Below are positions 11,913 to 29,483 of a stretch of 64,000 nt of DNA, piece by piece; position 1 is the first letter of the stretch, and the number at the start of each line of letters is the position of its first letter. The stretch lies in the NCBI RefSeq assembly GCF_024502345.1, contig NZ_JALDNN010000001.1. One strand, given 5' to 3'. The translations under genes and the position numbers were made by a program. Source of the DNA: Escherichia coli. Its GTDB lineage: Bacteria > Pseudomonadota > Gammaproteobacteria > Enterobacterales > Enterobacteriaceae. The notes beneath the pieces are model-generated. The model was not told the DNA's origin. It worked only from the letters and a program-made list of their open reading frames with translations, and did no database searches.

Positions 11913-11982
11913 GACTTATATCACCTGTGTTTTGCGTGAGCCTGAGCCATACTGATATTTTTCCTCGCACAAAGGACTCGGC

Positions 11983-12591
11983 ATGAAACTCGTCGGTAGC
12001 TACACCAGCCCGTTTGTACGCAAACTTTCTATTCTGTTGTTAGAAAAGGGCATAACTTTCGAATTTATTAATGAACTGCCCTATAACGCGGACAACGGCG
12101 TGGCGCAATTTAACCCGTTAGGAAAAGTGCCGGTGCTGGTGACCGAAGAGGGCGAATGCTGGTTTGATTCGCCGATCATCGCTGAATATATTGAATTAAT
12201 GAATGTCGCTCCGGCGATGTTGCCGCGCGATCCGCTGGAGTCGTTGCGGGTGCGCAAAATTGAGGCACTGGCGGATGGCATTATGGATGCTGGGCTGGTA
12301 TCGGTGCGTGAACAGGCGCGTCCAGCGGCGCAGCAGTCTGAAGATGAATTGTTACGCCAGCGGGAGAAAATCAACCGCAGTCTGGATGTGCTGGAAGGAT
12401 ATCTGGTCGATGGCACACTCAAAACCGATACGGTCAATCTGGCGACTATCGCTATTGCCTGTGCCGTCGGATATCTCAATTTCCGCCGCGTTGCGCCAGG
12501 TTGGTGTGTCGACCGCCCACACTTAGTCAAACTGGTCGAAAACCTGTTTAGCCGCGAAAGTTTTGCTCGCACCGAACCGCCAAAGGCTTGA
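11983..12591 (+). CDS. yibF: Glutathione S-transferase family protein YibF
   Basis: 202-aa ORF recognised as YibF. Confidence 0.9.
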
Positions 12592-12688
12592 TGCGCGATA
12601 TGTCCTCCTGACCCATCTCACGTTACAATCCGTGGTTATGTTAAACGCCCTTCTCCGTGTGAGAGGGCCTTGATCAGCCAGGTTTCCT

Positions 12689-14080
12689 ATGACAACCGAA
12701 ATGCGTTCCCTCTATAGTCAACTTCCGGCTATTGATCGCTTATTGCGCGATAGCTCCTTCCTTTCTTTGCGTGATACTTATGGTCACACCCGCGTGGTGG
12801 AATTGTTGCGTCAGATGCTCGACGAAGCGCGAGAAGTGATTCGTGGCAGCCAGACGCTGCCTGCGTGGTGTGAAAACTGGGCGCAAGAAGTCGATGCCCG
12901 GTTGACGAAAGAGGCGCAGAGTGCGCTGCGTCCGGTGATCAACCTGACGGGAACCGTGCTGCATACCAACCTTGGGCGAGCTTTACAGGCGGAAGCCGCG
13001 GTGGAAGCCGTTGCGCAGGCTATGCGTTCGCCAGTGACCCTCGAGTACGATCTGGACGACGCCGGACGCGGACATCGCGATCGTGCGCTGGCACAGTTGC
13101 TGTGCCGTATTACGGGGGCGGAAGATGCCTGTATCGTTAATAACAATGCGGCGGCGGTGTTATTGATGTTGGCGGCCACTGCCAGCGGGAAAGAGGTGGT
13201 GGTTTCTCGCGGCGAATTGGTGGAGATTGGCGGCGCGTTTCGTATTCCCGATGTTATGCGTCAGGCAGGCTGCACACTACACGAAGTAGGGACCACCAAC
13301 CGCACGCACGCGAATGATTATCGTCAGGCGGTGAATGAAAATACCGCACTGTTGATGAAAGTACATACCAGTAACTACAGCATTCAGGGGTTCACCAAAG
13401 CGATAGACGAAGCTGAACTGGTGGCGCTCGGCAAAGAGCTGGATGTTCCCGTAGTGACTGATTTAGGCAGTGGCTCGCTGGTCGATCTTAGCCAGTACGG
13501 TTTGCCGAAAGAGCCAATGCCGCAGGAGTTGATTGCGGCGGGCGTCAGTCTGGTGAGCTTCTCCGGCGACAAGTTGTTAGGCGGGCCGCAGGCAGGGATT
13601 ATCGTTGGTAAAAAAGAGATGATCGCCCGCCTGCAAAGCCACCCGCTGAAGCGTGCATTACGCGCGGATAAAATGACCCTCGCGGCGCTGGAAGCCACGT
13701 TGCGTCTTTATTTACACCCTGAAGCTCTGAGTGAAAAATTACCGACCCTGCGCCTGCTTACCCGCAGCGCAGAGGTCATTCAAATCCAGGCACAACATTT
13801 ACAGGCTCCCCTTGCCGCACATTACGGCGCGGAGTTTGCGGTACAGGTTATGCCATGTCTTTCGCAGATTGGCAGTGGTTCGCTGCCGGTTGATCGCCTG
13901 CCGAGCGCGGCATTAACGTTTACACCCCATGATGGACGCGGTAGCCACCTTGAGTCATTAGCCGCCCGCTGGCGTGAATTGCCAGTGCCGGTGATTGGTC
14001 GTATTTATGACGGACGATTGTGGCTGGATTTACGCTGCCTTGAAGATGAGCAACGGTTTTTGGAGATGTTGTTGAAATGA
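12689..14080 (+). CDS. selA: L-seryl-tRNA(Sec) selenium transferase
   Basis: 463-aa ORF recognised as SelA; overlaps selB start by 4 nt. Confidence 0.95.
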
Positions 14081-15921
14081 TTATTGCGACTGCCGGACAC
14101 GTTGACCACGGCAAAACAACCTTATTGCAGGCGATTACTGGCGTAAATGCTGACCGTCTGCCGGAAGAAAAAAAGCGCGGCATGACCATCGATCTCGGCT
14201 ATGCCTACTGGCCGCAGCCGGATGGTCGCGTGCCTGGTTTTATCGACGTACCCGGTCATGAAAAGTTTCTTTCCAACATGCTGGCGGGCGTTGGTGGTAT
14301 CGATCACGCGCTGTTGGTGGTGGCGTGCGATGACGGCGTGATGGCACAGACCCGTGAGCATCTGGCGATTTTGCAGCTGACCGGTAACCCGATGCTGACA
14401 GTGGCGCTGACCAAAGCTGATCGCGTGGACGAAGCGCGTGTTGATGAGGTTGAACGCCAGGTAAAGGAGGTTCTGCGGGAATACGGTTTTGCTGAGGCAA
14501 AACTGTTTATCACCGCAGCAACCGAAGGTCGGGGAATTGATGCCCTGCGCGAGCATCTGCTTCAGTTGCCGGAACGCGAGCACGCCAGCCAACATAGTTT
14601 CCGCCTCGCGATTGACCGCGCATTTACCGTAAAAGGTGCCGGGCTGGTCGTCACCGGTACGGCGTTAAGCGGGGAAGTGAAGGTAGGCGATTCACTCTGG
14701 CTGACTGGTGTAAATAAACCGATGCGTGTACGTGCGCTGCATGCGCAAAACCAGCCAACAGAAACCGCCAATGCCGGGCAGCGTATCGCGCTTAACATCG
14801 CGGGTGATGCGGAAAAAGAGCAGATTAACCGTGGCGACTGGCTGCTTGCCGATGTGCCGCCAGAGCCGTTCACACGGGTGATTGTCGAGCTTCAAACCCA
14901 TACACCGCTGACCCAGTGGCAGCCGCTGCATATTCACCACGCCGCCAGCCACGTCACGGGACGCGTTTCACTGCTGGAAGATAACCTTGCTGAACTGGTC
15001 TTCGACACCCCGTTATGGCTGGCAGATAACGACCGCCTGGTATTGCGCGATATCTCTGCCCGCAACACGCTGGCCGGAGCGCGCGTCGTGATGCTTAACC
15101 CGCCGCGTCGCGGTAAACGTAAACCAGAGTATCTGCAATGGCTGGCTTCCCTCGCCAGGGCACAGAATGATAGCGAAGCGTTAGCCGTTCACCTGCAACG
15201 CGGCGCGGTTAATCTTCCTGATTTCGCCTGGGCGCGCCAGCTCAACGGCGAAGGGATGCGCGAACTGCTGCAACAGCCTGGCTATATTCAGGCTGGTTAT
15301 AGCTTGTTGAATGCGCCGGTTGCCGCTCGCTGGCAACGGAAAATTCTCGGCACATTAGCGACTTATCATGAGCAACATCGCGATGAACCTGGGCCTGGGC
15401 GCGAACGTCTGCGACGTATGGCGTTGCCAATGGAAGATGAAGCGCTAGTACTGTTGCTGATTGAAAAGATGCGCGAAAGCGGCGACATCCTCAGTCATCA
15501 CGGTTGGCTGCATCTGCCGGATCACAAAGCGGGCTTCAGCGAAGAGCAGCAGGCCATCTGGCAAAAAGCAGAGCCGCTGTTTGGTGACGAGCCGTGGTGG
15601 GTGCGTGATCTGGCAAAAGAGACGGGTACCGACGAGCAGGCAATGCGCCTGACGCTACGCCAGGCGGCGCAGCAAGGAATAATTACCGCGATCGTCAAAG
15701 ATCGTTATTACCGTAACGATCGGATTGTCGAATTTGCCAATATGATCCGCGATCTCGATCAGGAGTGTGGTTCAACCTGCGCGGCGGATTTCCGCGATCG
15801 CTTAGGCGTAGGCCGAAAGCTGGCAATTCAGATTCTGGAATATTTTGACCGCATTGGCTTTACGCGTCGTCGTGGAAATGATCATTTATTGCGCGACGCA
15901 TTATTATTTCCGGAAAAATAA
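14077..15921 (+). CDS. selB: Selenocysteine-specific elongation factor
   Basis: 614 aa; GTP-binding motif [11 protein letters not shown] at N-terminus. Confidence 0.95.
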
Positions 15922-15980
15922 GGAAATGATTAATTAATTTTTAAAATAAATTAATACAAATTTCTTATGATTTTAAAAAA

Positions 15981-16014
15981 AGCACATTGTTTAATGAATA
16001 CAATGTGCTTTTTA
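15981..16014 (+). terminator. Rho-independent terminator downstream of selB
   Basis: Perfect hairpin agcacattg / caatgtgct followed by a T-run, flanked by an A-run (potentially bidirectional). Confidence 0.6.
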
Positions 16015-16110
16015 TTAGATTAATTTTGATAATTAATAATAATGATCATGTTTTCGAATGAAAATCCTCAGTAAGCTGCCCACCCTTTTTTACACTTTCA
16101 GGAGTGTGTT

Positions 16111-17262
16111 ATGGCATCTTCAACTTTCTTTATTCCTTCTGTGAATGTCATCGGCGCTGATTCATTGACTGATGCAATGAATATGATGGCAGATTATGGA
16201 TTTACCCGTACCTTAATTGTCACTGACAGTATGTTAACGAAATTAGGTATGGCGGGCGATGTGCAAAAAGCACTGGAAGAACGCAATATTTTTAGCGTTA
16301 TTTATGATGGCACCCAACCTAACCCCACCACGGAAAACGTCGCCGCAGGTTTGAAATTACTTAAAGAAAATAATTGCGATAGCGTGATCTCCTTAGGCGG
16401 TGGTTCTCCACACGACTGCGCAAAAGGTATTGCGCTGGTGGCAGCCAATGGCGGCGATATTCGCGATTACGAAGGCGTTGACCGCTCTGCAAAACCGCAG
16501 CTGCCGATGATCGCCATCAACACCACTGCGGGTACGGCCTCTGAAATGACCCGTTTCTGCATCATCACTGACGAAGCGCGTCATATCAAAATGGCGATTG
16601 TTGATAAACATGTCACTCCGCTGCTTTCTGTCAATGACTCCTCTCTGATGATTGGTATGCCGAAGTCACTGACCGCCGCAACGGGTATGGATGCCTTAAC
16701 GCACGCTATCGAAGCATATGTTTCTATTGCCGCCACGCCGATCACTGACGCTTGTGCACTGAAAGCCGTGACCATGATTGCCGAAAACCTGCCGTTAGCC
16801 GTTGAAGATGGCAGTAATGCGAAAGCGCGTGAAGCAATGGCTTATGCCCAGTTCCTTGCTGGTATGGCGTTCAATAATGCTTCTCTGGGTTATGTTCATG
16901 CGATGGCGCACCAGCTGGGCGGTTTCTACAACCTGCCACACGGTGTATGTAACGCCGTTTTGCTGCCGCATGTTCAGGTATTCAACAGCAAAGTCGCCGC
17001 CGCACGTCTGCGTGACTGTGCCGCTGCAATGGGCGTGAACGTGACAGGTAAAAACGATGCGGAAGGTGCTGAAGCCTGCATTAACGCCATCCGTGAACTG
17101 GCGAAGAAAGTGGATATCCCGGCAGGCCTACGCGACCTGAACGTGAAAGAAGAAGATTTCGCGGTTCTGGCGACTAATGCCCTGAAAGATGCCTGTGGTT
17201 TTACTAACCCGATCCAGGCAACTCACGAAGAAATTGTGGCGATTTATCGCGCAGCGATGTAA
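16111..17262 (+). CDS. yiaY: Iron-containing alcohol dehydrogenase YiaY
   Basis: 383-aa ORF with Fe-ADH family features. Confidence 0.9.
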
Positions 17263-17277
17263 TCATCATTTCCACAA

Positions 17278-17304
17278 CGGCTGGCAAATTGTCAGCCGCT
17301 TTTT
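17278..17304 (+). terminator. Terminator-like hairpin after yiaY
   Basis: cggctg-gcaaattgt-cagccg followed by cttttt. Confidence 0.5.
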
Positions 17305-17426
17305 CAACTATCTCTGTAACCCTTGCCCGTAAATTCGTGATAGCTGTCGTAAAGCTGTTACCGACTGGCGAAGATTTCGCCAGTCACGTCTACCCTTGTT
17401 ATACCTCACACCGCAAGGAGACGATC

Positions 17427-18965
17427 ATGACCAATAATCCCCCTTCAGCACAGATTAAGCCCGGCGAGTATGGTTTCTCCCTCAAGTTAAAAGCCCGCTA
17501 TGACAACTTTATTGGCGGCGAATGGGTAGCCCCTGCCGACGGCGAGTATTACCAGAATCTGACGCCGGTGACCGGGCAGCTGCTGTGCGAAGTGGCGTCT
17601 TCGGGCAAACGAGACATCGATCTGGCGCTGGATGCTGCGCACAAAGTGAAAGATAAATGGGCGCACACCTCGGTGCAGGATCGCGCGGCGATTCTGTTTA
17701 AGATTGCCGATCGAATGGAACAAAACCTTGAGCTGTTAGCGACGGCTGAAACCTGGGATAACGGCAAACCCATTCGCGAAACCAGTGCTGCCGACGTGCC
17801 GCTGGCGATTGACCATTTTCGCTATTTCGCCTCGTGTATTCGGGCGCAGGAAGGTGGGATCAGTGAAGTTGATAGCGAAACCGTGGCCTATCATTTCCAT
17901 GAACCGTTAGGCGTGGTGGGGCAGATTATCCCGTGGAACTTCCCGCTGCTGATGGCGAGCTGGAAAATGGCTCCCGCGCTGGCGGCGGGCAACTGTGTGG
18001 TGCTGAAACCCGCACGTCTTACCCCGCTTTCTGTACTGCTGCTAATGGAAATCGTCGGTGATTTACTGCCGCCGGGCGTGGTGAACGTGGTCAACGGCGC
18101 AGGTGGGGAAATTGGCGAATATCTGGCGACCTCGAAACGCATCGCCAAAGTGGCGTTTACCGGCTCAACGGAAGTGGGCCAACAAATTATGCAATACGCC
18201 ACGCAAAACATTATTCCGGTGACGCTGGAGCTGGGCGGCAAATCGCCAAATATCTTCTTTGCTGATGTGATGGATGAAGAAGATGCCTTTTTCGATAAAG
18301 CGCTGGAAGGCTTTGCACTGTTTGCCTTTAACCAGGGTGAAGTTTGCACCTGTCCGAGTCGTGCCTTAGTGCAGGAGTCAATCTACGAACGCTTTATGGA
18401 ACGCGCCATCCGCCGTGTCGAAAGCATTCGCAGCGGTAACCCACTCGACAGCGTGACGCAAATGGGCGCGCAGGTTTCTCACGGGCAACTGGAAACCATC
18501 CTCAACTACATTGATATCGGTAAAAAAGAGGGCGCAGACGTGCTCACCGGCGGGCGGCGCAAGCTGCTGGAAGGTGAACTGAAAGACGGCTACTACCTCG
18601 AACCGACGATTCTGTTTGGTCAGAACAATATGCGGGTGTTCCAGGAGGAGATTTTTGGCCCGGTGCTGGCGGTGACCACCTTCAAAACGATGGAAGAAGC
18701 GCTGGAGCTGGCGAACGATACGCAATATGGCCTGGGCGCAGGCGTCTGGAGTCGTAACGGTAATCTGGCCTATAAGATGGGGCGCGGCATTCAGGCCGGG
18801 CGCGTGTGGACCAACTGCTATCACGCTTACCCGGCACATGCTGCGTTTGGTGGCTACAAACAATCAGGTATCGGTCGCGAAACCCACAAGATGATGCTGG
18901 AGCATTACCAGCAAACCAAGTGCCTGCTGGTGAGCTACTCGGATAAACCGTTGGGGCTGTTCTGA
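17427..18965 (+). CDS. aldB: Aldehyde dehydrogenase B
   Basis: Protein begins [15 protein letters not shown], 512 aa; ORF-track entry carries a 46-codon upstream extension. Confidence 0.92.
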
Positions 18966-18989
18966 TATAAGAAGCTGGTCGCATTGGGT

Positions 18990-19085
18990 ATTCATTGCCT
19001 GATGCGACGCTTACGCGTCTTATCATGCCTACGGGAACCTGACCGTAGGCCGGATAAGGCGTACACGCCGCATCCGGCATAAACA
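18990..19085. repeat. REP/BIME palindromic elements downstream of aldB
   Basis: gcctgatgcgacgcttacgcgtcttatcatgcctac and gtaggccggataaggcgtacacgccgcatccggc, a typical inverted REP pair. Confidence 0.6.
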
Positions 19086-19509
19086 AAGCGCACGTTGTTA
19101 CAATTTACGTTTTAAACCTACGTGCGCAATAACCCAGACTACGCCAACAGAAGTGCGTTTCTGGGGCGTGTTTTGTCAGGAGTTTAATCTCGCGTTTCGA
19201 TGGTGAGCGGGCGAACCAGGCCGTAAATCACCATTGGTGATCCGAGGCCAATCAGCAATAAACGGTAGATAATTGAAGGTTTAATACGCTTAATCTGTAC
19301 TGTGGATGTTTTACTGGAGTTATTCATTAGTTTGGCCAATAGTTCCACTATTTCAATATGATAAACCTCGTCCTGTTGAAAAACCAGACAGCACATTTCA
19401 GAAAGTATATAAAAAACAATATGTCGTTATATAAATAAGGAAATTGCACTGCATCATGGCATTTCATAATATGCGTTAATTGTTCTTTTTTATATTCTTT
19501 GAGGGAAAT

Positions 19510-19833
19510 ATGTTCCTGGACTATTTTGCACTGGGAGTGCTTATTTTTGTATTTCTGGTGATATTCTATGGGATTATTATTTTACATGATATTCCCTACC
19601 TGATTGCTAAAAAACGTAATCATCCTCATGCCGACGCCATTCATGTTGCTGGTTGGGTGAGTCTTTTTACGCTGCATGTTATCTGGCCATTTTTGTGGAT
19701 TTGGGCCACGCTTTACCGCCCGGAGCGGGGATGGGGAATGCAAAACCATGACTCCTCCGTTGTGCAACTACAACAGCGTATTGCCGGGCTGGAGAAACAG
19801 CTCGCCGACATCAAATCCTCTTCTGCCGAGTAA
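19510..19833 (+). CDS. yiaW: Small inner-membrane protein YiaW (DUF3302), paralog of YibI
   Basis: Begins [21 protein letters not shown], 107 aa; near-identical N-terminal region to YibI. Confidence 0.85.
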
Positions 19834-19838
19834 TACTT

Positions 19839-20975
19839 ATGGATTTACTGATTATTTTGACCTATGTGGCTTTTGCATGGGCAATGTTTAAGATCTTCAA
19901 AATTCCTGTAAATAAATGGACCATTCCCACAGCGGCCCTGGGTGGCATATTTATTGTCAGTGGTTTAATTCTGTTAATGAACTATAACCATCCGTATACC
20001 TTCAAAGCGCAAAAAGCGGTTATTTCTATTCCTGTTGTCCCACAGGTGACAGGTGTGGTGATTGAAGTGACGGATAAGAAAAATACGCTGATTAAAAAAG
20101 GTGAGGTGCTATTTCGACTGGACCCGACGCGTTATCAGGCGCGGGTGGATAGGCTGATGGCGGATATCGTTACCGCAGAACATAAACAGCGGGCGTTGGG
20201 CGCAGAGTTAGATGAGATGGCGGCGAATACTCAGCAGGCAAAGGCCACGCGGGATAAATTCGCTAAAGAGTATCAGCGTTACGCACGCGGCAGCCAGGCG
20301 AAAGTAAACCCGTTTTCAGAACGCGATATTGATGTGGCGCGGCAAAATTATCTGGCGCAGGAAGCCTCCGTAAAGTCATCGGCGGCGGAACAAAAACAGA
20401 TCCAGAGCCAGCTGGATAGCCTGGTGTTGGGTGAACATTCTCAAATCGCCAGCCTGAAAGCGCAGCTCGCGGAAGCAAAATATAACCTTGAGCAGACGAT
20501 AGTGCGTGCGCCGAGCGATGGTTATGTGACCCAGGTGCTGATTCGTCCGGGTACCTATGCCGCGTCGCTGCCGCTACGTCCGGTGATGGTGTTTATACCC
20601 GATCAGAAACGACAAATCGTGGCGCAGTTCCGTCAGAACTCCTTGCTGCGCCTGGCTCCCGGCGATGATGCGGAAGTGGTATTTAACGCTCTGCCAGGCA
20701 AAGTGTTCAGCGGTAAGCTGGCAGCCATTAGTCCAGCTGTTCCCGGCGGAGCTTATCAGTCGACCGGCACCTTACAGACGTTAAACACAGCGCCGGGTTC
20801 AGATGGCGTTATCGCGACCATTGAACTGAATGAGCACACTGATTTGAGCGCTTTACCAGACGGTATTTACGCCCAGGTGGCGGTCTACTCTGATCATTTC
20901 AGCCATGTCTCGGTGATGCGCAAAGTGTTATTACGCATGACCAGCTGGGTGCATTACCTTTATCTCGATCATTAA
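19839..20975 (+). CDS. yiaV: HlyD-family membrane-fusion-like protein YiaV, paralog of YibH
   Basis: 378 aa, collinear with YibH at roughly 75 percent identity by eye. Confidence 0.85.
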
Positions 20976-21946
20976 TCTTCGCTTTCCGCCGCTTGTTCAG
21001 GCCGCAGTTGCTGCGACTGAGCAAGCTGGTGGCGAATTTCACGCAGCATTTCATCCAGCACATACTGGACCCGCCAGGGCTGGTATTCCCGTTTACGGAA
21101 GATAGCCACCAGATCCAGCCACCATTCATACGGGTGCTGAAAGCAGGGCACCAGCGTGCCGTCTTGCAGATCGCTCTGCACACTTTTGTCTGGCGCAAAC
21201 ACAATCCCCAGGTGATTTCGTGCCAGCTCCAGCGCCGATTGCGTGTTGTCGCAAACGTAATTTCCCTTCACGCGATAATCCCGCACCTCTTTACTCCCAG
21301 CGACGTTGAAGCGCCAGATATTCGCGTCGTCGATCATCATCGAGTCGATCAAAATACAGGAGTGATGTTCGAGTTCGTCAGGACGGCTAATGGGATGTTT
21401 CTCAAGATAGCGCTGGCTGGCATAAGCGGTTACGGCATATTGGGTAATAAAACTGGCAACCAGCGATTCATCTTTTGGTGGGGCATAGCTGATTAAAACA
21501 TCACAATCATCAGGAAATTCGACGCCTTCATAAAAGGCATTACGCTCAAGATTGCAGGTTTTTAGCGATAAGGTGATATCACCGATATCTTTAATTTTAT
21601 CGATTACATGTTTGGATAAATAGGTAATTATGCCGGTTGGGGCGTAGATGGTGACCCGACCACGTTTCTCATGCTTATAATCTGCAATAAAATTATTAAG
21701 CTGCTCGTTTCTGTCCAGCATGTCGTTGATGTACGGTAACAGCGCGGTACCAAAAGGTGTGAGCATCAGCTGCCGGGTGGTTCGGTCAAAGACTTTTAAA
21801 CCCACTTTTGATTCAAAATCAGCAAGGTATTTGCTGACGTTGGCCTGTGCGATGCCAAGTACAGTCGCGGCATGGCTGATATTTTCACTGGCAGCGATTA
21901 CCGAGATAATTTTTAACTCCCGGTACTTAAGTTGTAATTTTGTCAT
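20972..21946 (-). CDS. yiaU: LysR-family transcriptional regulator YiaU
   Basis: 324 aa with N-terminal HTH; convergent with yiaV, 4-bp stop overlap; divergent from yiaT. Confidence 0.88.
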
Positions 21947-22069
21947 CGCAACAGCCCAATTATATATAATTTTATATATTACTATATAAATATGAATCTT
22001 GCACCGGAGAAATTGTAAGCATTACTATGCCGATTCTTTTTTATCTTATTTTAAAATGGAATACCGGAC

Positions 22070-22810
22070 ATGTTAATTAACCGCAGTATTGTGGCGTTAT
22101 TTGCGTTGCCTTTTATGGCAAGCGCAACTGCTTCTGAATTATCCATTGGTGCTGGTGCGGCTTATAATGAATCGCCTTATCGCGGTTATAATGAAAATAC
22201 AAAGGCAATTCCGCTGATTAGCTATGAAGGTGATACTTTTTATGTTCGTCAGACCACGTTAGGTTTTATTCTGTCGCAAAGTGAAAAAAATGAACTTAGC
22301 CTGACCGCATCCTGGATGCCGCTGGAATTTGACCCTGCCGATAATGACGATTATGCCATGCAACAGCTTGATAAGCGTGATAGTACGGCTATGGCGGGGG
22401 GTGCCTGGTATCACCACGAGCGTTGGGGAACCGTGAAAGCCTCTGCAGCTGCGGACGTTCTGGATAACAGCAACGGCTGGGTGGGGGAGCTATCGGTATT
22501 CCACAAAATGCAGATAGGTCGTCTGTCGCTGACACCTGCGCTGGGCGTTCTCTATTATGACGAGAATTTCAGTGACTATTACTATGGCATTTCAGAGAGT
22601 GAGTCCCGTCGTAGCGGTCTGGCAAGTTATTCCGCGCAGGATGCCTGGGTGCCCTATGTCAGCCTGACGGCAAAATACCCGATAGGAGAGCACGTCGTAT
22701 TGATGGCGAGCGCAGGATACAGCGAGCTGCCGGAAGAGATTACCGACAGCCCGATGGTTGATCGTAATGAGAGTTTTACCTTTGTCACTGGCGTGAGCTG
22801 GCGTTTTTAA
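22070..22810 (+). CDS. yiaT: Outer-membrane protein YiaT (MipA/OmpV family)
   Basis: 246 aa with signal peptide and C-terminal aromatic residue (ends SWRF). Confidence 0.85.
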   Translation: MLINRSIVALFALPFMASATASELSIGAGAAYNESPYRGYNENTKAIPLISYEGDTFYVRQTTLGFILSQSEKNELSLTASWMPLEFDPADNDDYAMQQLDKRDSTAMAGGAWYHHERWGTVKASAAADVLDNSNGWVGELSVFHKMQIGRLSLTPALGVLYYDENFSDYYYGISESESRRSGLASYSAQDAWVPYVSLTAKYPIGEHVVLMASAGYSELPEEITDSPMVDRNESFTFVTGVSWRF

Positions 22811-22939
22811 TTCACCGGTGGAAGTCGGTGCGGCTGGCCTACGCTCTCGCACCGACTTGTAGGCCTGATAAGACGTGTTAAGCGTCGCATCAGGCAATGT
22901 GCACCCTACGTTGGATGCGGCGCGAGCGCCTTATCCAAC
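22811..22939. repeat. Terminator hairpin plus REP elements between yiaT and the GH127 gene
   Basis: 11-bp stem aagtcggtgcg / cgcaccgactt (22822-22858), then REP-like gtaggcctgataagacgtgttaagcgtcgcatcaggc and gatgcggcgcgagcgccttatcc. Confidence 0.55.
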
Positions 22940-24910
22940 TTACGGATGGCAATGCTTTTCCTCATTCACCCAGATCTTCATTTCGCCTTCACCCCGGTTA
23001 GCCCAGCTAAACCACGGGATAAAGGTCAGAGTTTGCGGCTGGCGTTTGGCTGGGGCATAGTCGTAATGCCACAACGGTTGTTGTTCTGGATTGCTCTGTT
23101 CATACCGGTAACCCGGTGCCTGGATTAAGATCTTATGGCTGAACAATCCCTTACCTTCAAATGTCGTAAATGGCGCATCGGCGGGCAGCCACAGATTATG
23201 CAGTGACTCGCCGTTGTCGGCCTGTTCCAGGCAATACACCAGCAGGCCGCGCTGAATCGCCACTTTTCCGGCGACGTGACGCACCAGCGGGTTACCGTAA
23301 ACGCGGCGTACCGGCATCGGCAAAGTCAGATTCAGCGTATCGCCCTCCTGCCATTCGCGGGTAATGTGCAAATACCCTTTACGAATATCCTGCTCGACCT
23401 CTTCCCCATTCAATATGATCTGCGGCTGTGTGCACCAGTCCGGCAGACGTAAAGCCAGCGTATGACGTACCGGCTGGGGCGATTCAACCGCAATCGTCAC
23501 CTGCTCCTGCCACGGATAGTTCCCGCTAACCCGCAGGCGCAGCGTGCCATTTTCTACCGGCACTTCCATGCTGTTTCCTGCGTAGATGTTGATATACAAC
23601 GCATCTTCACGCGGCGTGTAGAGATAATGACCAATCGAGGTCAGCACGCGGGCGATATTTGGCGGACAACAAGCGCAGCCAAACCAACGCTGGCGGATCG
23701 GTTTAACGTGATCGTAGATATGGTTGAATTTCAGCGATTTTGGATGTACTTCCAGCGGATTCACATAGAAGAAATGTTTGCCATCCAGCGCCATGCCGCC
23801 GAGCACGGTGTTGTACAGTGCGCGCTCCATCACATCGGCATATTGACTGTCGCCTTCCATTTCCAGCATTCGTCGGGCAAACATCATCAGGCCGATGGAG
23901 GCGCAACTTTCAGCGTATACCGTGTCATTCGGCAGATCGTAATCGCTAGTGAACGCTTCGCCGCTGCTTTGCGAGCCAATGCCGCCGGTAATATATAACT
24001 GACGCTGGGCCATATTGTTCCACAGCCGCAGGCAGTCCTGACGCTTGCTGTCATCGTGACTTAAACGCGCGAGATGCGCGACGCCGGTCATCAGATAGAC
24101 AAAACGTACCGCGTGACCGATGGCGGTTTGCTGTTGCGCAAGGGGCAAATGTGCCTGGCTGTAGGCTTTGTCTTTCACCATCCACGCCGGGCCGTAGGTG
24201 TGCCAGTGCGATGTCTGCCCGCGCTTTTCATATTCCTGGTCGTAATAGTGCGGTTGCGCACCACGCTGTTCGACAAAATAGTTCGTCAGCGCCAGGTAGC
24301 GCGGCTCTTCAGTCACTTCATACAGGCGCATTAGTGCCAGTTCAATTTCCGGGTGACCAGGATAACCGTGTAACTTACTTTCATCTGGACCAAATACGCT
24401 GTCGATATTATCGGCCAGGCGGCAAACGACCCCCAGCAAGCGCCGTTTTCCCGTGGCCTGGAAGAAGGCGACTCCGGCTTCAATCAGATGACCTGCGCAG
24501 TAAAGTTCATGACACTCCGCCAGATTGCTCCAGCGTTCTTCGGGTGCTTTTACCGTAAAGTAAGTATTGAGATAGCCGTCTTCGCATTGGGCGGAGGCGA
24601 TCAGTTCGATTACCTCGTCGGCGGTTTTTTCCAGTTCGGCGTCCGGCTTCTGGCACAGCGACCAGGCTACCGCTTCCAGCCATTTGGCGACGTCGCTGTC
24701 CTGAAACACCATCCCGTAAAATTCACCCTCCTGAAGTCCGGCGGCAATGCGAAAGTTTTCAATCGCATGGCTGGGTTCCGCTTCTGGGATACGATCGTTC
24801 AAGGCATCCCACTGATAAGGAATCACCACGTCGCGGACCAGTTGTTGGTACTGACCGAGGAACGGATCGCTGACCGTCAGTTTATGCAGATCGACTTCCG
24901 AAATGTTCAT
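22940..24910 (-). CDS. Glycoside hydrolase family 127-like enzyme (beta-L-arabinofuranosidase family, DUF1680)
   Basis: About 656 aa from ATG at 24910 with AAGGAG RBS. Contains E-x-C (ESCAS) and, about 77 residues later, CACCPPN, matching the spacing of the Zn-binding/catalytic Glu338/Cys340 and Cys417/Cys418 of HypBA1 as I recall it. Confidence 0.7.
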   Translation of the reverse strand: MNISEVDLHKLTVSDPFLGQYQQLVRDVVIPYQWDALNDRIPEAEPSHAIENFRIAAGLQEGEFYGMVFQDSDVAKWLEAVAWSLCQKPDAELEKTADEVIELIASAQCEDGYLNTYFTVKAPEERWSNLAECHELYCAGHLIEAGVAFFQATGKRRLLGVVCRLADNIDSVFGPDESKLHGYPGHPEIELALMRLYEVTEEPRYLALTNYFVEQRGAQPHYYDQEYEKRGQTSHWHTYGPAWMVKDKAYSQAHLPLAQQQTAIGHAVRFVYLMTGVAHLARLSHDDSKRQDCLRLWNNMAQRQLYITGGIGSQSSGEAFTSDYDLPNDTVYAESCASIGLMMFARRMLEMEGDSQYADVMERALYNTVLGGMALDGKHFFYVNPLEVHPKSLKFNHIYDHVKPIRQRWFGCACCPPNIARVLTSIGHYLYTPREDALYINIYAGNSMEVPVENGTLRLRVSGNYPWQEQVTIAVESPQPVRHTLALRLPDWCTQPQIILNGEEVEQDIRKGYLHITREWQEGDTLNLTLPMPVRRVYGNPLVRHVAGKVAIQRGLLVYCLEQADNGESLHNLWLPADAPFTTFEGKGLFSHKILIQAPGYRYEQSNPEQQPLWHYDYAPAKRQPQTLTFIPWFSWANRGEGEMKIWVNEEKHCHP

Positions 24911-24920
24911 CTTGTGCTCC

Positions 24921-26321
24921 TTAAGGCTGTACATGACGCTGACGCAGGTCGGTAGCTATGCGTGACATCATAGGATTATTGAGTTTGCAAAAGCGGATCG
25001 CCCCTGCCAGCAGCAGGTGGAATAGCGCAGGCAGTAATGTTTCCATCGCCGCGATCCCGCCAAGCGAACTGGCGGTCTGGTTTTCCACGCCAGGCTGGTA
25101 GGCGACAAAAATAAACAGCAGGCTGATGATCCCGGCGCTGGAGGCCCAGGCCAGCTTGATGAAAAACAGATTGAAGGCGAAGTTCATGCCGGAAGAACGT
25201 ACGCGGGTTTTCCACTCGCCGTAGTCATCGGCAAAGGCCATCAATGAGAAGTGCAGTGGCAATGTGAAGCCAAGAATTACGCCATTACCGAGGATCACCG
25301 CCAGCCACAGCGTTTGATAAGCCGGGCCGGAGGGCAGGAACCACATCAACACCGCCAGCGCAGCGAGGAGCAGGTTGGTGTAGTAGTAAATTTTGACGGT
25401 ATCGAAACGCCGCGTTAACGGGCTGACAATCACCGAGCCGATAATGGAGGCGAAGGTGACCATGGTGAAGAACAGCGACGTGTAGCCCGTACTGCCTTGT
25501 AAGACGTAGGTAATGAAGTACATATACCCACCGCCGCGAATGTTAAAGACGTTAATCAGCAGGAAAGACATGACCAGCATCAGCAGCAGTTGGTCGTTGT
25601 TCCGCAGCCCGGCAAGATGTTCGCGCAGGGTAAATTTCCCCATTGTGGAGAGCGGCACCCGTTCACGAACCCAGAAGAAACAGCACAGGAACATCACCAC
25701 GGCAATGGCGCACAATACCCCGACGCCCAGTTGATAGCCGCGTGCAGCGTTGCCCTGACCGAAGAGATCTACCATCCACGGTAAGCCTACCGAAACCAGA
25801 AATCCCGCTACGCCGCAGAGAACGAATCGCCAGGGCTGGCAGGAGATCACTTCATTGTGGCGGGTGGTCATGGTGTTGATCAGCGCGCAGTACGGTACGT
25901 TGATGGCGGTATAACCGACTGAAAGGAGCAGGTAAGTACCGAACGCCCAGGCGATTTTTACTCCCATGCTGGCATCTGGCACGGTGAACGTCAGGATGCC
26001 GATAATGCCGATGGGAATGGCAATCCATAGCTGCCACGGACGAAAGCGCCCCCAGCGACTTTGCGTCCGGTCGGCAATGACGCCCATCACCGGGTCGGAG
26101 ATGGCATCAAACACGCGCAGTGCAATAAACAGCGTGCCAACCAGCGCCGGAGTTAATCCAAAAACGTCGGTGTAGAAAAAGGTGAGAAAATTCATGATCA
26201 GGCAAGTTATTACGGTGCCGCCTGCGTCACCCAGGCCGTAGCCTATTTTTTCCCGTACAGATAACGCATCGTCAATTTTACCTTTAGCGATATCAGCGGT
26301 AGTAATCGGTGTAGAGGTCAT
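24921..26321 (-). CDS. Glycoside-pentoside-hexuronide (GPH) family sugar:cation symporter (MelB-like)
   Basis: 466 aa, multi-TM; N-terminal GYGLGD motif typical of GPH transporters; immediately upstream of and co-directional with the GH127 gene. Confidence 0.75.
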
Positions 26322-26546
26322 AGATATTCCTCGTGAATAGGGAGCAATTTTTAGTTTTATTGAAATGACCTGATTAATTCTGCCGTGAACGGGAATATCA
26401 ACAAGGCGAGAAAAGAGTAAAAAAAGGTGACGATTCCGACCTGAATTTAAAAGTGTGAAATGGATCAGGTGAAATTAATGTTTTTGATTAATAATCAAAA
26501 GGTAATGTGTTTAATCATTAATGAATAAGCGGGAAATTACATATCA
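26322..26546. promoter_or_regulatory. Divergent promoter region between the GPH-GH127 operon and the AraC-family regulator gene
   Basis: 225-bp AT-rich intergenic region between divergent starts; contains a partial CRP-like motif tgtgaaatggatcagg. Confidence 0.4.
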
Positions 26547-27362
26547 ATGCTCGAATTATCCATGACGTTACCGATTAAAGTGCAAAATGGTGGATTATTT
26601 ATTTCCCGTGGCGTAGGGAGGCATCCTGCAAGGCGGCTGGAGTCATGGGAAATTATCTTTGTCGAAAAAGGTCGATTAACGATTCAGGAAGAAGAACGGA
26701 TATTTCTGGTCGATGCGGGAGAGAGTTTATTACTCTGGCCGAACCGACAACATGTTGGGGTGGAGGATTTTCCCGCCGATCTCAAATTTTACTGGCTGCA
26801 TTTTGAGGTTAAAGCGCCGGACAACGACCCTCGCTGGCTTACTCATCTTAGCGTGCCGCAACAAACGAAGGTTGTCGATCCGCAGGCGCTGGTGGCCCTG
26901 TTTCGCCAGTTCTTAAGCGAACAGGAAAAGCATCAACGCACTCCGGCGCTGGAGTTTATTGTGCTGCTCATTTTGCAGCAGCTCACCCGTGACGCGCGTC
27001 TTGATGAACAGGCCGATGGCGCAGGCACCACCCTTGCCTGGAAAGCGCAGAAACTGATCCGCACGCAATATCATCGCCCGCTTTCTACGGCGCTTCTGGC
27101 CCGCGAGCTGTACTGCAATGCCGATTATCTTGGGCGCGTCTACCGGCGGGTGTTTCATCTGACGTTAACAGAAGCAATCCATCGCCAGCGGGTGCGCGAA
27201 GCCGAAAAGCTGTTAATTAGCGAAGCGCGATCGCTCACGGAAGTGGCGGCGTTGTGCGGGTTTAATGACGTTGGCTATTTCCGGCAGATTTTTCGCAAAC
27301 ACACCGGTTTAACGCCAGCAGCGTGGAAGCGGCGTTACAGCAAGGAACATATCAATTCGTAG
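26547..27362 (+). CDS. AraC/XylS-family transcriptional regulator
   Basis: 271 aa; cupin-like N-terminal half and C-terminal double HTH (RELYCNADYLGRVYRR ... VGYFRQIFRKHTGLTPAAWKRRY). Confidence 0.8.
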   Translation: MLELSMTLPIKVQNGGLFISRGVGRHPARRLESWEIIFVEKGRLTIQEEERIFLVDAGESLLLWPNRQHVGVEDFPADLKFYWLHFEVKAPDNDPRWLTHLSVPQQTKVVDPQALVALFRQFLSEQEKHQRTPALEFIVLLILQQLTRDARLDEQADGAGTTLAWKAQKLIRTQYHRPLSTALLARELYCNADYLGRVYRRVFHLTLTEAIHRQRVREAEKLLISEARSLTEVAALCGFNDVGYFRQIFRKHTGLTPAAWKRRYSKEHINS

Positions 27363-27402
27363 TGCCGTGTCGATTTCGCTTTCGACATCACGTCTGAAAC
27401 AG

Positions 27403-27504
27403 GTGGGAGAGAAAAATCTCCTGAAACCTCTGCGTGAAACCGCGCAGGCTATTTCTAATGAACTGGGGTTTACTGTCAGGGACGACCAGGGCGCGATCAC
27501 ATAA
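27403..27504 (+). pseudogene. Possible 3' remnant of an IclR-family regulator gene (yiaJ-like)
   Basis: Start-less frame ending at a stop, encoding ...NLLKPLRETAQAISNELGFTVRDDQGAIT, which resembles IclR-family C-termini; sits where yiaJ would end next to ysaA in K-12. Confidence 0.3.
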
Positions 27505-27605
27505 CGCTTTGGACAAGTGCCAAAACTTTAACATTTCCTTCGTTGGATCAAAGCAGTAGGGACGCGCTCTCTGGCACTCTGCTGTTTTAGTGCAAAGGAG
27601 TGATC

Positions 27606-28079
27606 ATGAACCGGTTTATTATTGCGGATGCGACGAAATGTATCGGTTGCCGTACCTGTGAAGTGGCTTGCGCAGTGTCGCATCAGGAGAATCAGGATTG
27701 CGCTGCGTTGTCACCAGACGAGTTTATTTCCCGTATTCGTGTCATTAAAGACCACAGCTGGACCACGGCAGTAGCCTGTCATCAGTGTGAAGATGCACCG
27801 TGCGCGAATGTCTGCCCTGTTGACGCGATAAGCCGCGAACATGGGCATATTTTCGTTGAACAAACACGTTGCATTGGCTGTAAAAGCTGTATGCTGGCTT
27901 GCCCGTTTGGTGCGATGGAGGTCGTTTCTTCGCGCAAAAAGGCGAGGGCGATTAAGTGCGATCTGTGCTGGCATCGGGAGACGGGGCCGGCCTGTGTTGA
28001 AGCCTGCCCGACAAAGGCGTTGCAGTGCATGGATGTCGAGAAAGTGCAGCGGCATCGGCTACGGCAGCAGCCTGTTTGA
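27606..28079 (+). CDS. ysaA: 4Fe-4S ferredoxin-type protein YsaA
   Basis: 157 aa from ATG at 27606 with AAGGAG RBS; multiple CxxCxxC motifs. Confidence 0.85.
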   Translation: MNRFIIADATKCIGCRTCEVACAVSHQENQDCAALSPDEFISRIRVIKDHSWTTAVACHQCEDAPCANVCPVDAISREHGHIFVEQTRCIGCKSCMLACPFGAMEVVSSRKKARAIKCDLCWHRETGPACVEACPTKALQCMDVEKVQRHRLRQQPV

Positions 28080-28086
28080 AACGTTT

Positions 28087-28224
28087 TCCGGCGTTTCTCA
28101 ACGCCGGAATAGTGCGCTTTGTTTATGCCAGATGCGGCGTAAACGCCTTATCCGGCCTACAAATTCTTCCAAATTCAATATATTGCAGAAATTATGTAGG
28201 CCTGATAAGCGTAGCGCATCAGGC
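28087..28224. repeat. Terminator hairpin plus REP/BIME pair between ysaA and avtA
   Basis: Hairpin ccggcgtt-tctca-acgccgg; REP gccagatgcggcgtaaacgccttatccggcctac (28128-28160) and inverted copy gtaggcctgataagcgtagcgcatcaggc (28196-28224). Confidence 0.55.
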
Positions 28225-28229
28225 AATTT

Positions 28230-29483
28230 TTAGTGACTTTCAGCCCAGGCTCTTTCTATCTCTTCCGCCAGAATCTTCACCCCCGCCTCAATTTTCTCCG
28301 GCTCTGGTACGTAGTTCATGCGCATACATTGATGCGTATGCGGCCACGGTTTATCCAGTCCCGGGAAGAAGTTGTGCCCCGGCACCATCAGCACGCCGCG
28401 TGCTTTCAGGCGCTGGTAGAGTTGCTCGGTCGTAATGGGCAAATCCTTAAACCAAAGCCAGAGGAAAATGGCTCCTTCTGGTTTATGAATTAGGCAGCGA
28501 TCTTCCGGTAAATAGCGGCGAATGATGGCGATAGTTTCCTGAACACGCTGGTAGTAAAACGGTTTGATGACTGTTTCAGACAGGCGCAGCAGATCGTTAC
28601 GCTTAATCATTTCACACATCATCGCCGGACCAATACCGCCAGGTGCCAGGCTGATAATGCCGTTCATATTGGTGATGGCAGTGATGATTTTTTCATTGGC
28701 GATGATAATGCCGCAGCGGGAGCCAGGCAGCCCCAGCTTGGAAAGACTCATGCACAGCACGATATTCGGATTCCATAGCGGGCGCGCTTCACTGAAGATG
28801 ATACCCGGGAACGGGACGCCATAAGCGTTATCAATCACCAGCGGAATGCCGTGTTGATTCGCCAGCGCGTCAAGCTTCAGCAACTCTTCGTCAGTAATCA
28901 CATTGCCTGTTGGATTCGTCGGCCGGGAGACGCAAATCATCCCGGTTTCTTCGCCAATATGCAGATGCTCAAAATCGACGTGGTATTTAAACTGGCCTTC
29001 CGGCAGCAGTTCAATATTCGGACGCGCAGAGACAAACAGATCTTCTTCCAGTCCGGCGTCAGCGTAGCCAATGTATTCCGGTGCCAGCGGGAACAGCACT
29101 TTTTTGACCCGACCATCGGCACGGCGTCCGGCAAACAGATTAAATAAGTAGAAAAACGCGCTCTGGCTGCCGTTTGTTAGTGCAATATTCTGTGCTTCGA
29201 TATCCCAACCCAACTTCTCGCGCAGCATTCCGGCAAGCAGTGTGAGTAGCTCCGTTTTCCCCTGTGGACCGTCGTAATTGCACAGTGCATCAGTCGCTTT
29301 GCCACTTTCCAGCATGTCGGTCAGTAGCGTCTGGAAGTAGTCCTGCATTTCCGGGATCTGCGCCGGATTACCGCCGCCGAGCATAATCGCGCCAGGCGTG
29401 CGTAAACCGTCGTTCAGATCTTCCATCAGCAGCGTAATGCCGGAGTGGCGGGTAAATTTGTCACCAAAAAGGGAGAATGTCAT
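28230..29483 (-). CDS. avtA: Valine-pyruvate aminotransferase
   Basis: Protein begins MTFSLFGDKFTRHSG, 417 aa; ORF-track entry has a 35-codon upstream extension. Confidence 0.93.
   Translation of the reverse strand: MTFSLFGDKFTRHSGITLLMEDLNDGLRTPGAIMLGGGNPAQIPEMQDYFQTLLTDMLESGKATDALCNYDGPQGKTELLTLLAGMLREKLGWDIEAQNIALTNGSQSAFFYLFNLFAGRRADGRVKKVLFPLAPEYIGYADAGLEEDLFVSARPNIELLPEGQFKYHVDFEHLHIGEETGMICVSRPTNPTGNVITDEELLKLDALANQHGIPLVIDNAYGVPFPGIIFSEARPLWNPNIVLCMSLSKLGLPGSRCGIIIANEKIITAITNMNGIISLAPGGIGPAMMCEMIKRNDLLRLSETVIKPFYYQRVQETIAIIRRYLPEDRCLIHKPEGAIFLWLWFKDLPITTEQLYQRLKARGVLMVPGHNFFPGLDKPWPHTHQCMRMNYVPEPEKIEAGVKILAEEIERAWAESH

What the first reader, a model, noticed from the sequence alone, without database searches (positions are those of the whole stretch)
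27363..27599. Start-less IclR-like C-terminal fragment at the junction of the replaced locus
Just upstream of ysaA there is a frame with no start codon that ends in ...NLLKPLRETAQAISNELGFTVRDDQGAIT-stop, resembling the C-terminal effector-domain ends of IclR-family regulators. In K-12 the IclR-type gene yiaJ ends next to ysaA in this orientation. That suggests yiaJ was truncated when the yiaJ–sgbE block was replaced (or the new locus inserted), which would put the recombination breakpoint within about 27363–27420.
Basis: partly seen in the sequence, partly recalled or inferred. Interest (0 to 1): 0.45.

Follow-up and report, generated by a model that had tools for sequence, protein, structure and literature searches.

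The report
Leftover tail of deleted yiaJ gene
This is the dead last 46 codons of the E. coli regulator gene yiaJ (plaR), left behind when a 9-kb deletion between two nearly identical 11-base stretches removed the neighbouring sugar-acid operon; it is an ordinary, already annotated pseudogene, though the same deletion seems to have happened more than once.

Summary
Window 27364-27504 is the last 46 codons plus stop of yiaJ/plaR. It matches YiaJ at 45/46 residues, and 248/252 nt match K-12 from 27364 into ysaA. Homology to yiaJ stops at 27363/27364, one base after the stop codon of the upstream AraC-type gene.

The "replacement/insertion" reading is not supported. Of 5426 complete E. coli genomes, 1893 carry both loci side by side: yiaT-GH127-MFS-AraC-sgbE…yiaK-yiaJ-ysaA. 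Many other Enterobacteriaceae do too. K-12-type genomes (2461) carry decayed remnants of the GH127 and AraC genes. So both layouts are alternative deletions from an ancestor that had both loci.

Here an 8987-bp deletion joined two imperfect 11-bp direct repeats. One is GCCGGGGCGAT, in a GC hairpin after the AraC-type gene. The other is GCCGTGTCGAT, at yiaJ codons 237-240. The deletion removed sgbE to yiaK and yiaJ codons 1-236.

426 genomes have this layout, with two junction alleles: the window type (74) and the O157:H7/O55:H7/O145:H28 type (350). A different Escherichia species, about 10% diverged, has the window-type junction. This suggests a recurrent deletion.

The remnant lacks the HTH and most of the effector domain, and RefSeq annotates it as a pseudogene. 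Interest is low to moderate.

The parts
26547..27362 (+). Intact AraC-family regulator gene (271 aa) of the GH127/MFS/AraC cluster. Its TAG stop (27360-27362) lies one base before the deletion junction.
   Evidence: ORF. Annotated as an AraC family transcriptional regulator in the matching RefSeq record. In 1893 genomes the same gene is followed by a hairpin and sgbE.
27364..27374 (+). Deletion junction: one hybrid copy (GCCGTGTCGAT) of the 11-bp imperfect direct repeat. In this window the crossover lies within GCCG (27364-27367).
   Evidence: Three-way comparison with strain C5. The AraC-side parent matches the window up to 27367, and the yiaJ-side parent matches from 27364. O157:H7 has the other hybrid, GCCGGGGCGAT, with the crossover in CGAT.
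27364..27504 (+). yiaJ (plaR) remnant: codons 237-282 plus TAA. It is a pseudogene without the HTH domain and with only the last 32 positions of the IclR_C domain.
   Evidence: PGAP annotates exactly these bases as 'IclR family transcriptional regulator, incomplete, missing N-terminus' in FDAARGOS_943, O157:H7 F8952 and THO-010.
27505..27605 (+). Unchanged yiaJ-ysaA intergenic spacer. It is 101 nt and identical to K-12 MG1655.
   Evidence: Alignment to K-12. Parts of it (GGATCAAAGC…CTCTGGCAC) are conserved upstream of ysaA in other genera.
27606..28079 (+). ysaA (4Fe-4S protein), the intact right-hand neighbour.
   Evidence: ORF. RefSeq annotation.

Best explanation
Window 27364-27504 is a non-functional remnant of the IclR-family repressor gene yiaJ (plaR).

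The ancestral layout, still present in about a third of E. coli genomes and in many other Enterobacteriaceae, was yiaT - GH127 - MFS - AraC-type regulator - hairpin - sgbE sgbU sgbH lyxK yiaO yiaN yiaM yiaL yiaK - yiaJ - ysaA.

In the lineage of this window an 8987-bp deletion joined two imperfect 11-bp direct repeats:
- GCCGGGGCGAT lies just after the AraC-type gene's stop. It forms the 5' arm and start of the loop of a GC-rich hairpin.
- GCCGTGTCGAT lies at yiaJ codons 237-240.

The deletion removed the whole yiaK-sgbE operon, the yiaK/yiaJ promoter region and yiaJ codons 1-236. The likely mechanism is RecA-independent misalignment at short repeats (replication slippage or microhomology-mediated joining), possibly helped by the hairpin. 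This mechanism is inferred, not shown.

What is left cannot act as a regulator. It has no HTH and only 32 of 174 effector-domain positions. It is out of frame with the AraC-type gene and has no ribosome-binding site.

Inferred consequences:
- Loss of the 2,3-diketo-L-gulonate / L-xylulose (aerobic ascorbate, L-lyxose) pathway.
- Loss of the PlaR repressor for its other targets.
- Loss of the hairpin that separated the AraC-type gene from downstream DNA, so its transcripts may now run into ysaA.

The same pair of repeats appears to have been used more than once. There are two junction alleles in E. coli, and the window-type junction also occurs in a separate Escherichia species.
For: Shown directly:
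- Identity of the remnant to yiaJ codons 237-282 and to the K-12 yiaJ-ysaA spacer, with a Pfam IclR_C partial hit. Full YiaJ has HTH_IclR at 25-74 and IclR_C at 92-268.
- Both parental sequences exist in one genome. In strain C5 the two GCCG copies are 8987 bp apart, and the flanks match the window at 98-99%. Best whole-region matches of window 9000-27600 are both-loci genomes in two pieces spanning 27588 bp, again 8987 extra.
- Population counts in 5426 complete genomes: 1893 with both loci, 426 with the AraC-remnant-ysaA junction, and 2461 with the K-12-type GH127 plus AraC remnants.
- Outgroups: the both-loci synteny occurs in at least 8 genera.
- No IS, integrase or target duplication is annotated at either boundary.
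- The hairpin in the undeleted form has dG -11.6 kcal/mol and z -3.4. It is lost in the window.

Recurrence:
- Junction GCCG|TGTCGAT occurs in 74 genomes and GCCGGGGCGAT|TTCGC in 350 (O157:H7, O55:H7, O145:H28).
- Escherichia sp. E1V33 is about 90% nt identical to the window on both flanks and 97% identical to E. whittamii. It has the window-type junction.
- Its remnant differs from the window at 20/235 nt but at only 8/235 from the intact E. whittamii yiaJ.
- The O157:H7 remnant plus spacer is 0/235 different from an intact yiaJ allele.

Function of YiaJ/PlaR as repressor of the yiaK operon and about 18 other targets: PMC6958661.
Against: - Nothing contradicts the deletion itself.
- The slippage mechanism and the role of the hairpin are inferred from sequence only.
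- Recurrence within E. coli is not proven. The AraC-side haplotype is almost identical among both junction types and an undeleted genome. Homologous recombination could have moved one old deletion onto different right-hand haplotypes.
- No whole-genome phylogeny was made.
- A mechanical 45-aa GTG ORF exists, and translation was not tested.
- The promoter/terminator scans gave no more hits than shuffled sequence, so read-through into ysaA is only an inference.
Confidence: 0.92

Rival explanations
1. One reading: the yiaJ-sgbE block was replaced by, or interrupted by insertion of, a 'new' GH127/MFS/AraC locus, truncating yiaJ at the recombination breakpoint.
For: In a two-way comparison with K-12 the two blocks occupy the same place between yiaT and ysaA. 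That looks like a replacement.
Against: - 1893 genomes carry both blocks in tandem with intact AraC-type and yiaJ genes.
- The tandem layout is widespread in other genera.
- K-12 has GH127 and AraC remnants, so its ancestors had the 'new' locus too.
- No IS, integrase or duplication is annotated at the borders.
Confidence: 0.03
2. One single ancient deletion, later spread and reshuffled by homologous recombination, explains all carriers. The two junction alleles and the different flanking haplotypes are secondary.
For: - The AraC-side 821 nt are nearly identical in window-type, O157-type and one undeleted genome.
- E. coli flanks are mosaic, so recombination is active here.
- The deletion size and repeat pair are the same everywhere.
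Against: - The two junction alleles differ at exactly the two mismatched positions of the repeat, each matching one parent. Point mutation or recombination with only 4 bp of homology on one side is unlikely to do that.
- In E1V33 clade-specific variants lie 13 nt left and 23 nt right of the same junction.
- Remnants resemble intact alleles of their own background more than each other.
Confidence: 0.3
3. The 45-aa GTG ORF (27367-27504) is a real small protein, for example a free C-terminal IclR peptide made by reinitiation after the AraC-type gene's stop 4 nt upstream.
For: - The open frame is kept in all carriers examined, including the 10%-diverged E1V33.
- GTG lies 4 nt after the TAG, which could allow termination-reinitiation.
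Against: - There is no Shine-Dalgarno sequence.
- The fragment covers only 32 of 174 positions of the effector domain.
- PGAP marks it as a pseudogene in every record inspected.
- 141 nt staying open is expected by chance for a young remnant.
Confidence: 0.04

Closest known systems
yiaJ / plaR of E. coli K-12 (IclR-family repressor of yiaKLMNO-lyxK-sgbHUE; PMC6958661)
   Same: The window's 141 nt are its codons 237-282 plus stop. They sit in the same position and orientation upstream of ysaA. From 27364 into ysaA, 248/252 nt are identical.
   Different: The first 236 codons are missing (HTH and most of the effector domain). So are its promoter and the whole operon it regulates.
RefSeq/PGAP pseudogene 'IclR family transcriptional regulator, incomplete, missing N-terminus' in O157:H7 and other strains (e.g. 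E4U62_RS01115, I6H00_RS19455, JLH08_RS00670)
   Same: It is the same feature at the same coordinates relative to the AraC-type gene and ysaA.
   Different: O157:H7 has the other junction allele (GGG instead of TGT at window 27368-27370) and a slightly different remnant haplotype.
K-12's own remnants between yiaT and sgbE (GH127 internal fragment plus last 34 codons of the AraC-type gene)
   Same: This is the mirror-image case at the same locus: a deletion from the both-loci ancestor that left a 3' gene stub.
   Different: - It is a different deletion of about 4 kb and removes the other block.
- The GH127 stub is only 88-90% identical to intact genes, so it is much older or more decayed than the yiaJ stub (97-100%).
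Short-direct-repeat (microhomology) deletions, as in the classic lacI deletion hot spots (my own knowledge: Farabaugh et al. 1978; Albertini et al. 1982)
   Same: - The endpoints lie in short, imperfect direct repeats and one hybrid copy is retained.
- There is a palindrome at one endpoint.
- No mobile element is involved.
   Different: - Seen here as a natural polymorphism spanning 9 kb.
- The mechanism was not tested experimentally.

Membership tests
Functional IclR-family transcription factor | N-terminal winged HTH DNA-binding domain (Pfam HTH_IclR PF09339) | tested here: not met
   In full YiaJ the HTH is at residues 25-74. The remnant starts at residue 237, and Pfam on the remnant finds no HTH.
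Functional IclR-family transcription factor | Complete C-terminal effector-binding domain (Pfam IclR_C PF01614, 174 positions) | tested here: not met
   Only model positions 143-174 are matched (E 3.7e-5).
Functional IclR-family transcription factor | Start codon with a ribosome-binding site and its own promoter | tested here: not met
   - The only in-frame start is GTG 27367, with no Shine-Dalgarno-like bases upstream.
- The yiaK/yiaJ promoter region is deleted.
- The promoter scan found no + strand site.
yiaJ (plaR) pseudogene remnant | Collinear nucleotide identity with the yiaJ 3' end and the yiaJ-ysaA spacer, in the same position and orientation | tested here: met
   248/252 nt identical to K-12 MG1655, 45/46 aa identical to YiaJ, and synteny with ysaA-avtA-malS.
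Short-direct-repeat (microhomology-mediated) deletion | A repeat copy at each endpoint in the undeleted form, and a single hybrid copy at the junction | tested here: met
   In strain C5, GCCGGGGCGAT starts at L003 11665 and GCCGTGTCGAT at 20652. The window has GCCGTGTCGAT and O157:H7 has GCCGGGGCGAT, followed by yiaJ sequence.
Short-direct-repeat (microhomology-mediated) deletion | No mobile element, recombinase gene or target-site duplication at the junction | tested here: met
   The sequence is contiguous across the junction. No IS or integrase is annotated between yiaT and ysaA in C5, FDAARGOS_943 or O157:H7.
Short-direct-repeat (microhomology-mediated) deletion | RecA-independent slippage as the actual mechanism | not testable with these tools
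   This needs deletion-frequency assays in recA and hairpin-mutant backgrounds.
Genomic-island replacement or insertion (O-island versus K-island) | The two blocks are mutually exclusive alternatives at one site | tested here: not met
   1893 of 5426 genomes carry both blocks in tandem. The same holds in other genera.

The most novel reading that the evidence does not exclude
The 9-kb loss of yiaJ plus the yiaK-sgbE operon is a recurrent, site-preferred deletion.

The same imperfect 11-bp repeat pair, one copy inside a GC hairpin, has been used independently at least three times:
- the window-type junction in E. coli;
- the O157:H7/O55:H7/O145:H28-type junction;
- the window-type junction in the separate species Escherichia sp. 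E1V33.

This would point to a structural deletion hot spot, to repeated selection for losing PlaR and the 2,3-diketo-L-gulonate/ascorbate pathway, or to both. The yia-sgb block is also present or absent between sister species in Citrobacter, Enterobacter, Kluyvera and Raoultella, which would fit such selection.
Probability: 0.5. Interest if true: 0.4.

Novelty: already known. Interest (0 to 1): 0.25.

Why it matters
On its own the remnant is a routine pseudogene that RefSeq already flags.

Its value is as a marker. It fixes to the base how O157:H7-like and some other E. coli lost the PlaR repressor and the yiaK-sgbE pathway for oxidised ascorbate and L-xylulose. It also shows that the textbook K-12 versus O157 "island swap" at this site is really two alternative deletions from a richer ancestor.

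If the recurrence holds, the site would be a natural example of a hairpin-associated microhomology deletion hot spot. It would also be a case of repeated loss of a plant-sugar-acid pathway in enteric bacteria. PlaR controls about 18 other targets in K-12 (PMC6958661), so carriers may also have a rewired carbon-source regulon.

Tried and rejected
- Promoter/terminator scans of window 26300-28300 and of the C5 AraC-sgbE spacer gave no more hits than shuffles. They do not support any statement on transcription. The hairpin lacks a T-run and was not called a terminator.
- I tried to decide single versus multiple origin within E. coli from flanking haplotypes. This was inconclusive. The 821-nt AraC-type gene is nearly identical in both junction types and in an undeleted baboon isolate, and the larger flanks are mosaic.
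- The four 'gaps' between the window's GH127 region and all other genomes are an alignment artefact of a substitution cluster at 23053-23059 with no net length change. They are not a frameshift.
- Literature searches (yiaJ+O157; lyxK+O157+deletion; yiaT/GH127; ysaA+sigma54) found no paper describing this deletion or a sigma-54 promoter for ysaA. One search failed on syntax.
- Other genera with the AraC-type gene directly next to ysaA were checked for a yiaJ stub. None was recognisable, so they say nothing about the junction mechanism.
- I considered and rejected an in-frame AraC-YiaJ fusion by stop-codon read-through. The remnant is in the +1 frame relative to the AraC-type gene (coordinates).

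Full report
**1. What is in the sequence**

Window 27364-27504 (+ strand) translates to AVSISLSTSRLKQVGEKNLLKPLRETAQAISNELGFTVRDDQGAIT-stop. Just upstream, a 271-aa AraC-family regulator gene (26547-27362) ends with TAG at 27360-27362. Downstream lie a 101-nt spacer and ysaA (ATG 27606 to 28079), then avtA and malS on the other strand.

The ORF finder lists a 45-aa ORF from GTG 27367. So "no start codon" is nearly, but not strictly, true. That GTG is Val238 of YiaJ and has no Shine-Dalgarno-like sequence in front of it.

**2. It is the 3' end of yiaJ**

- The 46 residues match residues 237-282 of the 282-aa YiaJ of strain C5 at 45/46 (E 8e-28).
- Aligned to K-12 MG1655, window 27364-27615 is identical at 248 of 252 bases through the yiaJ end, the spacer and the ysaA start. 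Similarity stops abruptly at 27363/27364.
- Pfam finds IclR_C on the fragment alone (E 3.7e-5), but only model positions 143-174 of 174.
- Full YiaJ has HTH_IclR at 25-74 and IclR_C at 92-268.
- RefSeq/PGAP annotates exactly these 141 bases as an incomplete IclR-family pseudogene in FDAARGOS_943 (identical over the 1201 bases searched), O157:H7 F8952 and THO-010.

**3. Deletion, not replacement**

A search with window 26900-28100 against 5426 complete E. coli genomes found 426 with the contiguous AraC-remnant-ysaA layout. In nearly all others the yiaJ-ysaA half matched from exactly query base 465, which is window 27364. A second, separate match covered the last ~110 bases of the AraC-type gene.

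That second match is a pseudogene stub between yiaT and sgbE in K-12-type genomes, next to an internal fragment of the GH127 gene. This double stub is present in 2461 genomes.

A chimeric query (window AraC-type gene plus the hairpin and sgbE of a K-12-type genome) was covered in full by 1893 genomes. In strains C5 and PapM-32-1 the order is yiaT, GH127, MFS, AraC, sgbE, sgbU, sgbH(ulaD), lyxK, yiaO, yiaN, yiaM, yiaL, yiaK, yiaJ, ysaA, avtA, all intact.

I scanned one genome per species with the AraC-type protein and then ran tblastn with the C5 genes. The same tandem synteny appeared in Enterobacter, Lelliottia, Citrobacter, Klebsiella, Kluyvera ascorbata, Pseudocitrobacter, Huaxiibacter and E. 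whittamii.

The both-loci layout is therefore ancestral. K-12 and the window represent two different deletions from it. No IS, integrase or duplication is annotated at the borders.

**4. The junction**

In strain C5 the sequence after the AraC-type gene's stop is TAG T GCCGGGGCGAT GAAGCCCCGGC… This forms an 8-bp GC hairpin (DNA dG -11.6 kcal/mol, z -3.4 against shuffles). It lies between the convergent AraC-type gene and sgbE.

In yiaJ the sequence at codons 237-240 is …TAC GCCGTGTCGAT TTCGC. The two 11-mers match at 9 of 11 positions. The window reads TAG T GCCGTGTCGAT TTCGC. It follows the AraC-side parent through 27367 and the yiaJ parent from 27364, so the crossover lies in GCCG.

The distance between the two GCCG copies in C5 is 8987 bp. 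The best two-piece matches of window 9000-27600 show the same extra length.

The deleted interval contains:
- the 3' arm of the hairpin;
- all nine operon genes from sgbE to yiaK;
- the divergent yiaK/yiaJ promoter region;
- yiaJ codons 1-236.

The remnant is in the +1 frame relative to the AraC-type gene, so no fusion protein is possible.

**5. Two junction alleles and a second species**

O157:H7 F8952 reads TAG T GCCGGGGCGAT TTCGC, so its crossover is in CGAT at the other end of the same repeat. A 60-nt junction query, restricted by E-value to spanning matches, returned two groups:
- 74 genomes with the window allele, including O169:H41, several ETEC and animal isolates.
- 350 genomes with two mismatches at 96.7% identity, the listed ones mostly O157:H7, O55:H7 and O145:H28. 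I read the O157-type junction base by base only in F8952.

The two alleles differ at exactly the two mismatched repeat positions, and each copies one parent. That is what two separate misalignment events would give. It is hard to obtain by mutation, or by recombination with only 4 bp of homology on one side.

Escherichia sp. E1V33 also has the window-type junction. It is ~90% nt identical to the window on both flanks and 97% identical to E. whittamii. Clade-specific variants lie 13 nt to the left and 23 nt to the right of its junction.

Over the 235 nt of remnant plus spacer:

| Comparison | Differences |
|---|---|
| E1V33 remnant vs window | 20 |
| E1V33 remnant vs intact E. whittamii yiaJ | 8 |
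| O157:H7 remnant vs intact allele (isolate 2-101) | 0 |
| THO-010 (window-type junction) vs window | 7 |
| THO-010 vs intact C5 allele | 3 |

Remnants thus group with intact alleles of their own background, not by junction type. I read this as at least two, and probably three, independent deletions at the same repeat pair.

Within E. coli alone I could not exclude one old event followed by recombination. The AraC-side haplotype is almost the same in all classes, and the larger flanks are mosaic.

**6. Function and consequences**

The remnant itself is best regarded as inert DNA. The consequences of the deletion are inferred from what is known of the lost genes. YiaJ/PlaR represses the yiaK operon and binds about 18 other targets, with L-ascorbate and galacturonate as effectors (PMC6958661). 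Carriers, including the O157:H7 lineage, therefore lack both the pathway and this repressor.

The hairpin after the AraC-type gene is gone, so transcripts of that gene may extend into ysaA. The consensus scans gave no useful signal either way.

**7. Comparison with known things, novelty and score**

The feature is a member of a very familiar class: a gene stub left by a short-repeat deletion. It is already marked as a pseudogene in public annotation. No paper on it was found in the searchable library.

What this analysis adds:
- the base-exact breakpoint;
- the demonstration that the K-12 and O157 layouts are reciprocal deletions from a both-loci ancestor;
- the likely recurrence of the deletion.

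I rate the finding itself as already known and of low to moderate interest (0.25). The recurrent-hot-spot reading is the most novel possibility not excluded (probability about 0.5, interest about 0.4 if true).

Noticed in passing
L006 1306-1599 (K-12 MG1655); L002 4719-5012: K-12-type genomes hold the mirror-image remnants between yiaT and sgbE: a 189-nt internal GH127 fragment and the last 34 codons of the AraC-type gene. These occur in 2461 of 5426 genomes. The GH127 stub is only 88-90% identical to intact genes, so it is much older or more decayed than the yiaJ stub.
   Followed up: partly
L014 10814-10870 (Escherichia whittamii): E. whittamii has the both-loci layout but lacks sgbE. The AraC-side hairpin, with a different sequence (CTCCGGAGC…GCCCCGGAG), is followed almost directly by the end of sgbU. 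This is another deletion starting at the same boundary.
   Followed up: partly
L009, L011, L018-L020, L030, L032, L045, L051, L052, L054, L065, L083 (around 10800-11100 of each): Many other species have the AraC-type gene directly next to ysaA, with no yia-sgb operon and no recognisable yiaJ stub. They include Citrobacter amalonaticus, C. portucalensis and C. gillenii, Kluyvera, Leclercia, Enterobacter cloacae and Raoultella. Sister species have the full operon, so the block is gained or lost repeatedly across the family.
   Followed up: partly
window 27546-27590: GGATCAAAGC…CTCTGGCACTCTGCTGTTTT upstream of ysaA is conserved across genera, even where the rest of the spacer differs. The TGGCAC resembles a sigma-54 -24 element, but the -12 part fits poorly. 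No literature support was found.
   Followed up: no
window 28080-28230: The 150-nt ysaA-avtA spacer holds REP-like palindromic units (e.g. GCCGGATGCGGCGTAAACGCCTTATCCGGCCTAC). THO-010 and PapM-32-1 have only 38 nt here, a ~112-nt presence/absence difference.
   Followed up: partly
L001 3747-4911 (FDAARGOS_943), compared with window ~16100-22800: The strain whose junction region is identical to the window has an IS1A between a truncated yiaY and a truncated yiaT. About 5.5 kb (aldB, yiaW, yiaV, yiaU) is lost there, and the window still has it. No complete genome in the collection matches window 9000-27600 in full at more than about 98.7%.
   Followed up: partly
L004 (Nissle 1917) 3012-6000 and 12561-12673: Nissle-type genomes have a fourth layout. 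aldB lies directly next to sgbE, with no yiaW/V/U/T and no GH127 cluster or AraC stub. A Fic-family gene sits between yiaY and aldB, and a DUF4862 gene replaces yiaL. sgbE is only ~92% identical to the K-12-type gene.
   Followed up: no
window 27429-27448: A terminator-like hairpin (TCTGCGTGAAACCGCGCAGG followed by CTATTTCTAA) lies inside the yiaJ remnant. The number of such hits was no greater than in shuffled sequence.
   Followed up: no
window 23053-23059: A small cluster of substitutions near the 3' end of the GH127 gene distinguishes the window from every compared genome. There is no net length change and the reading frame is intact.
   Followed up: yes
H141/H81 (NZ_CP033605.1, 'O157:H7 strain TR01'): One record labelled O157:H7 carries the window-type junction at 100% identity, unlike the other O157:H7 genomes. 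This may be a mislabelled serotype or a recombinant.
   Followed up: no
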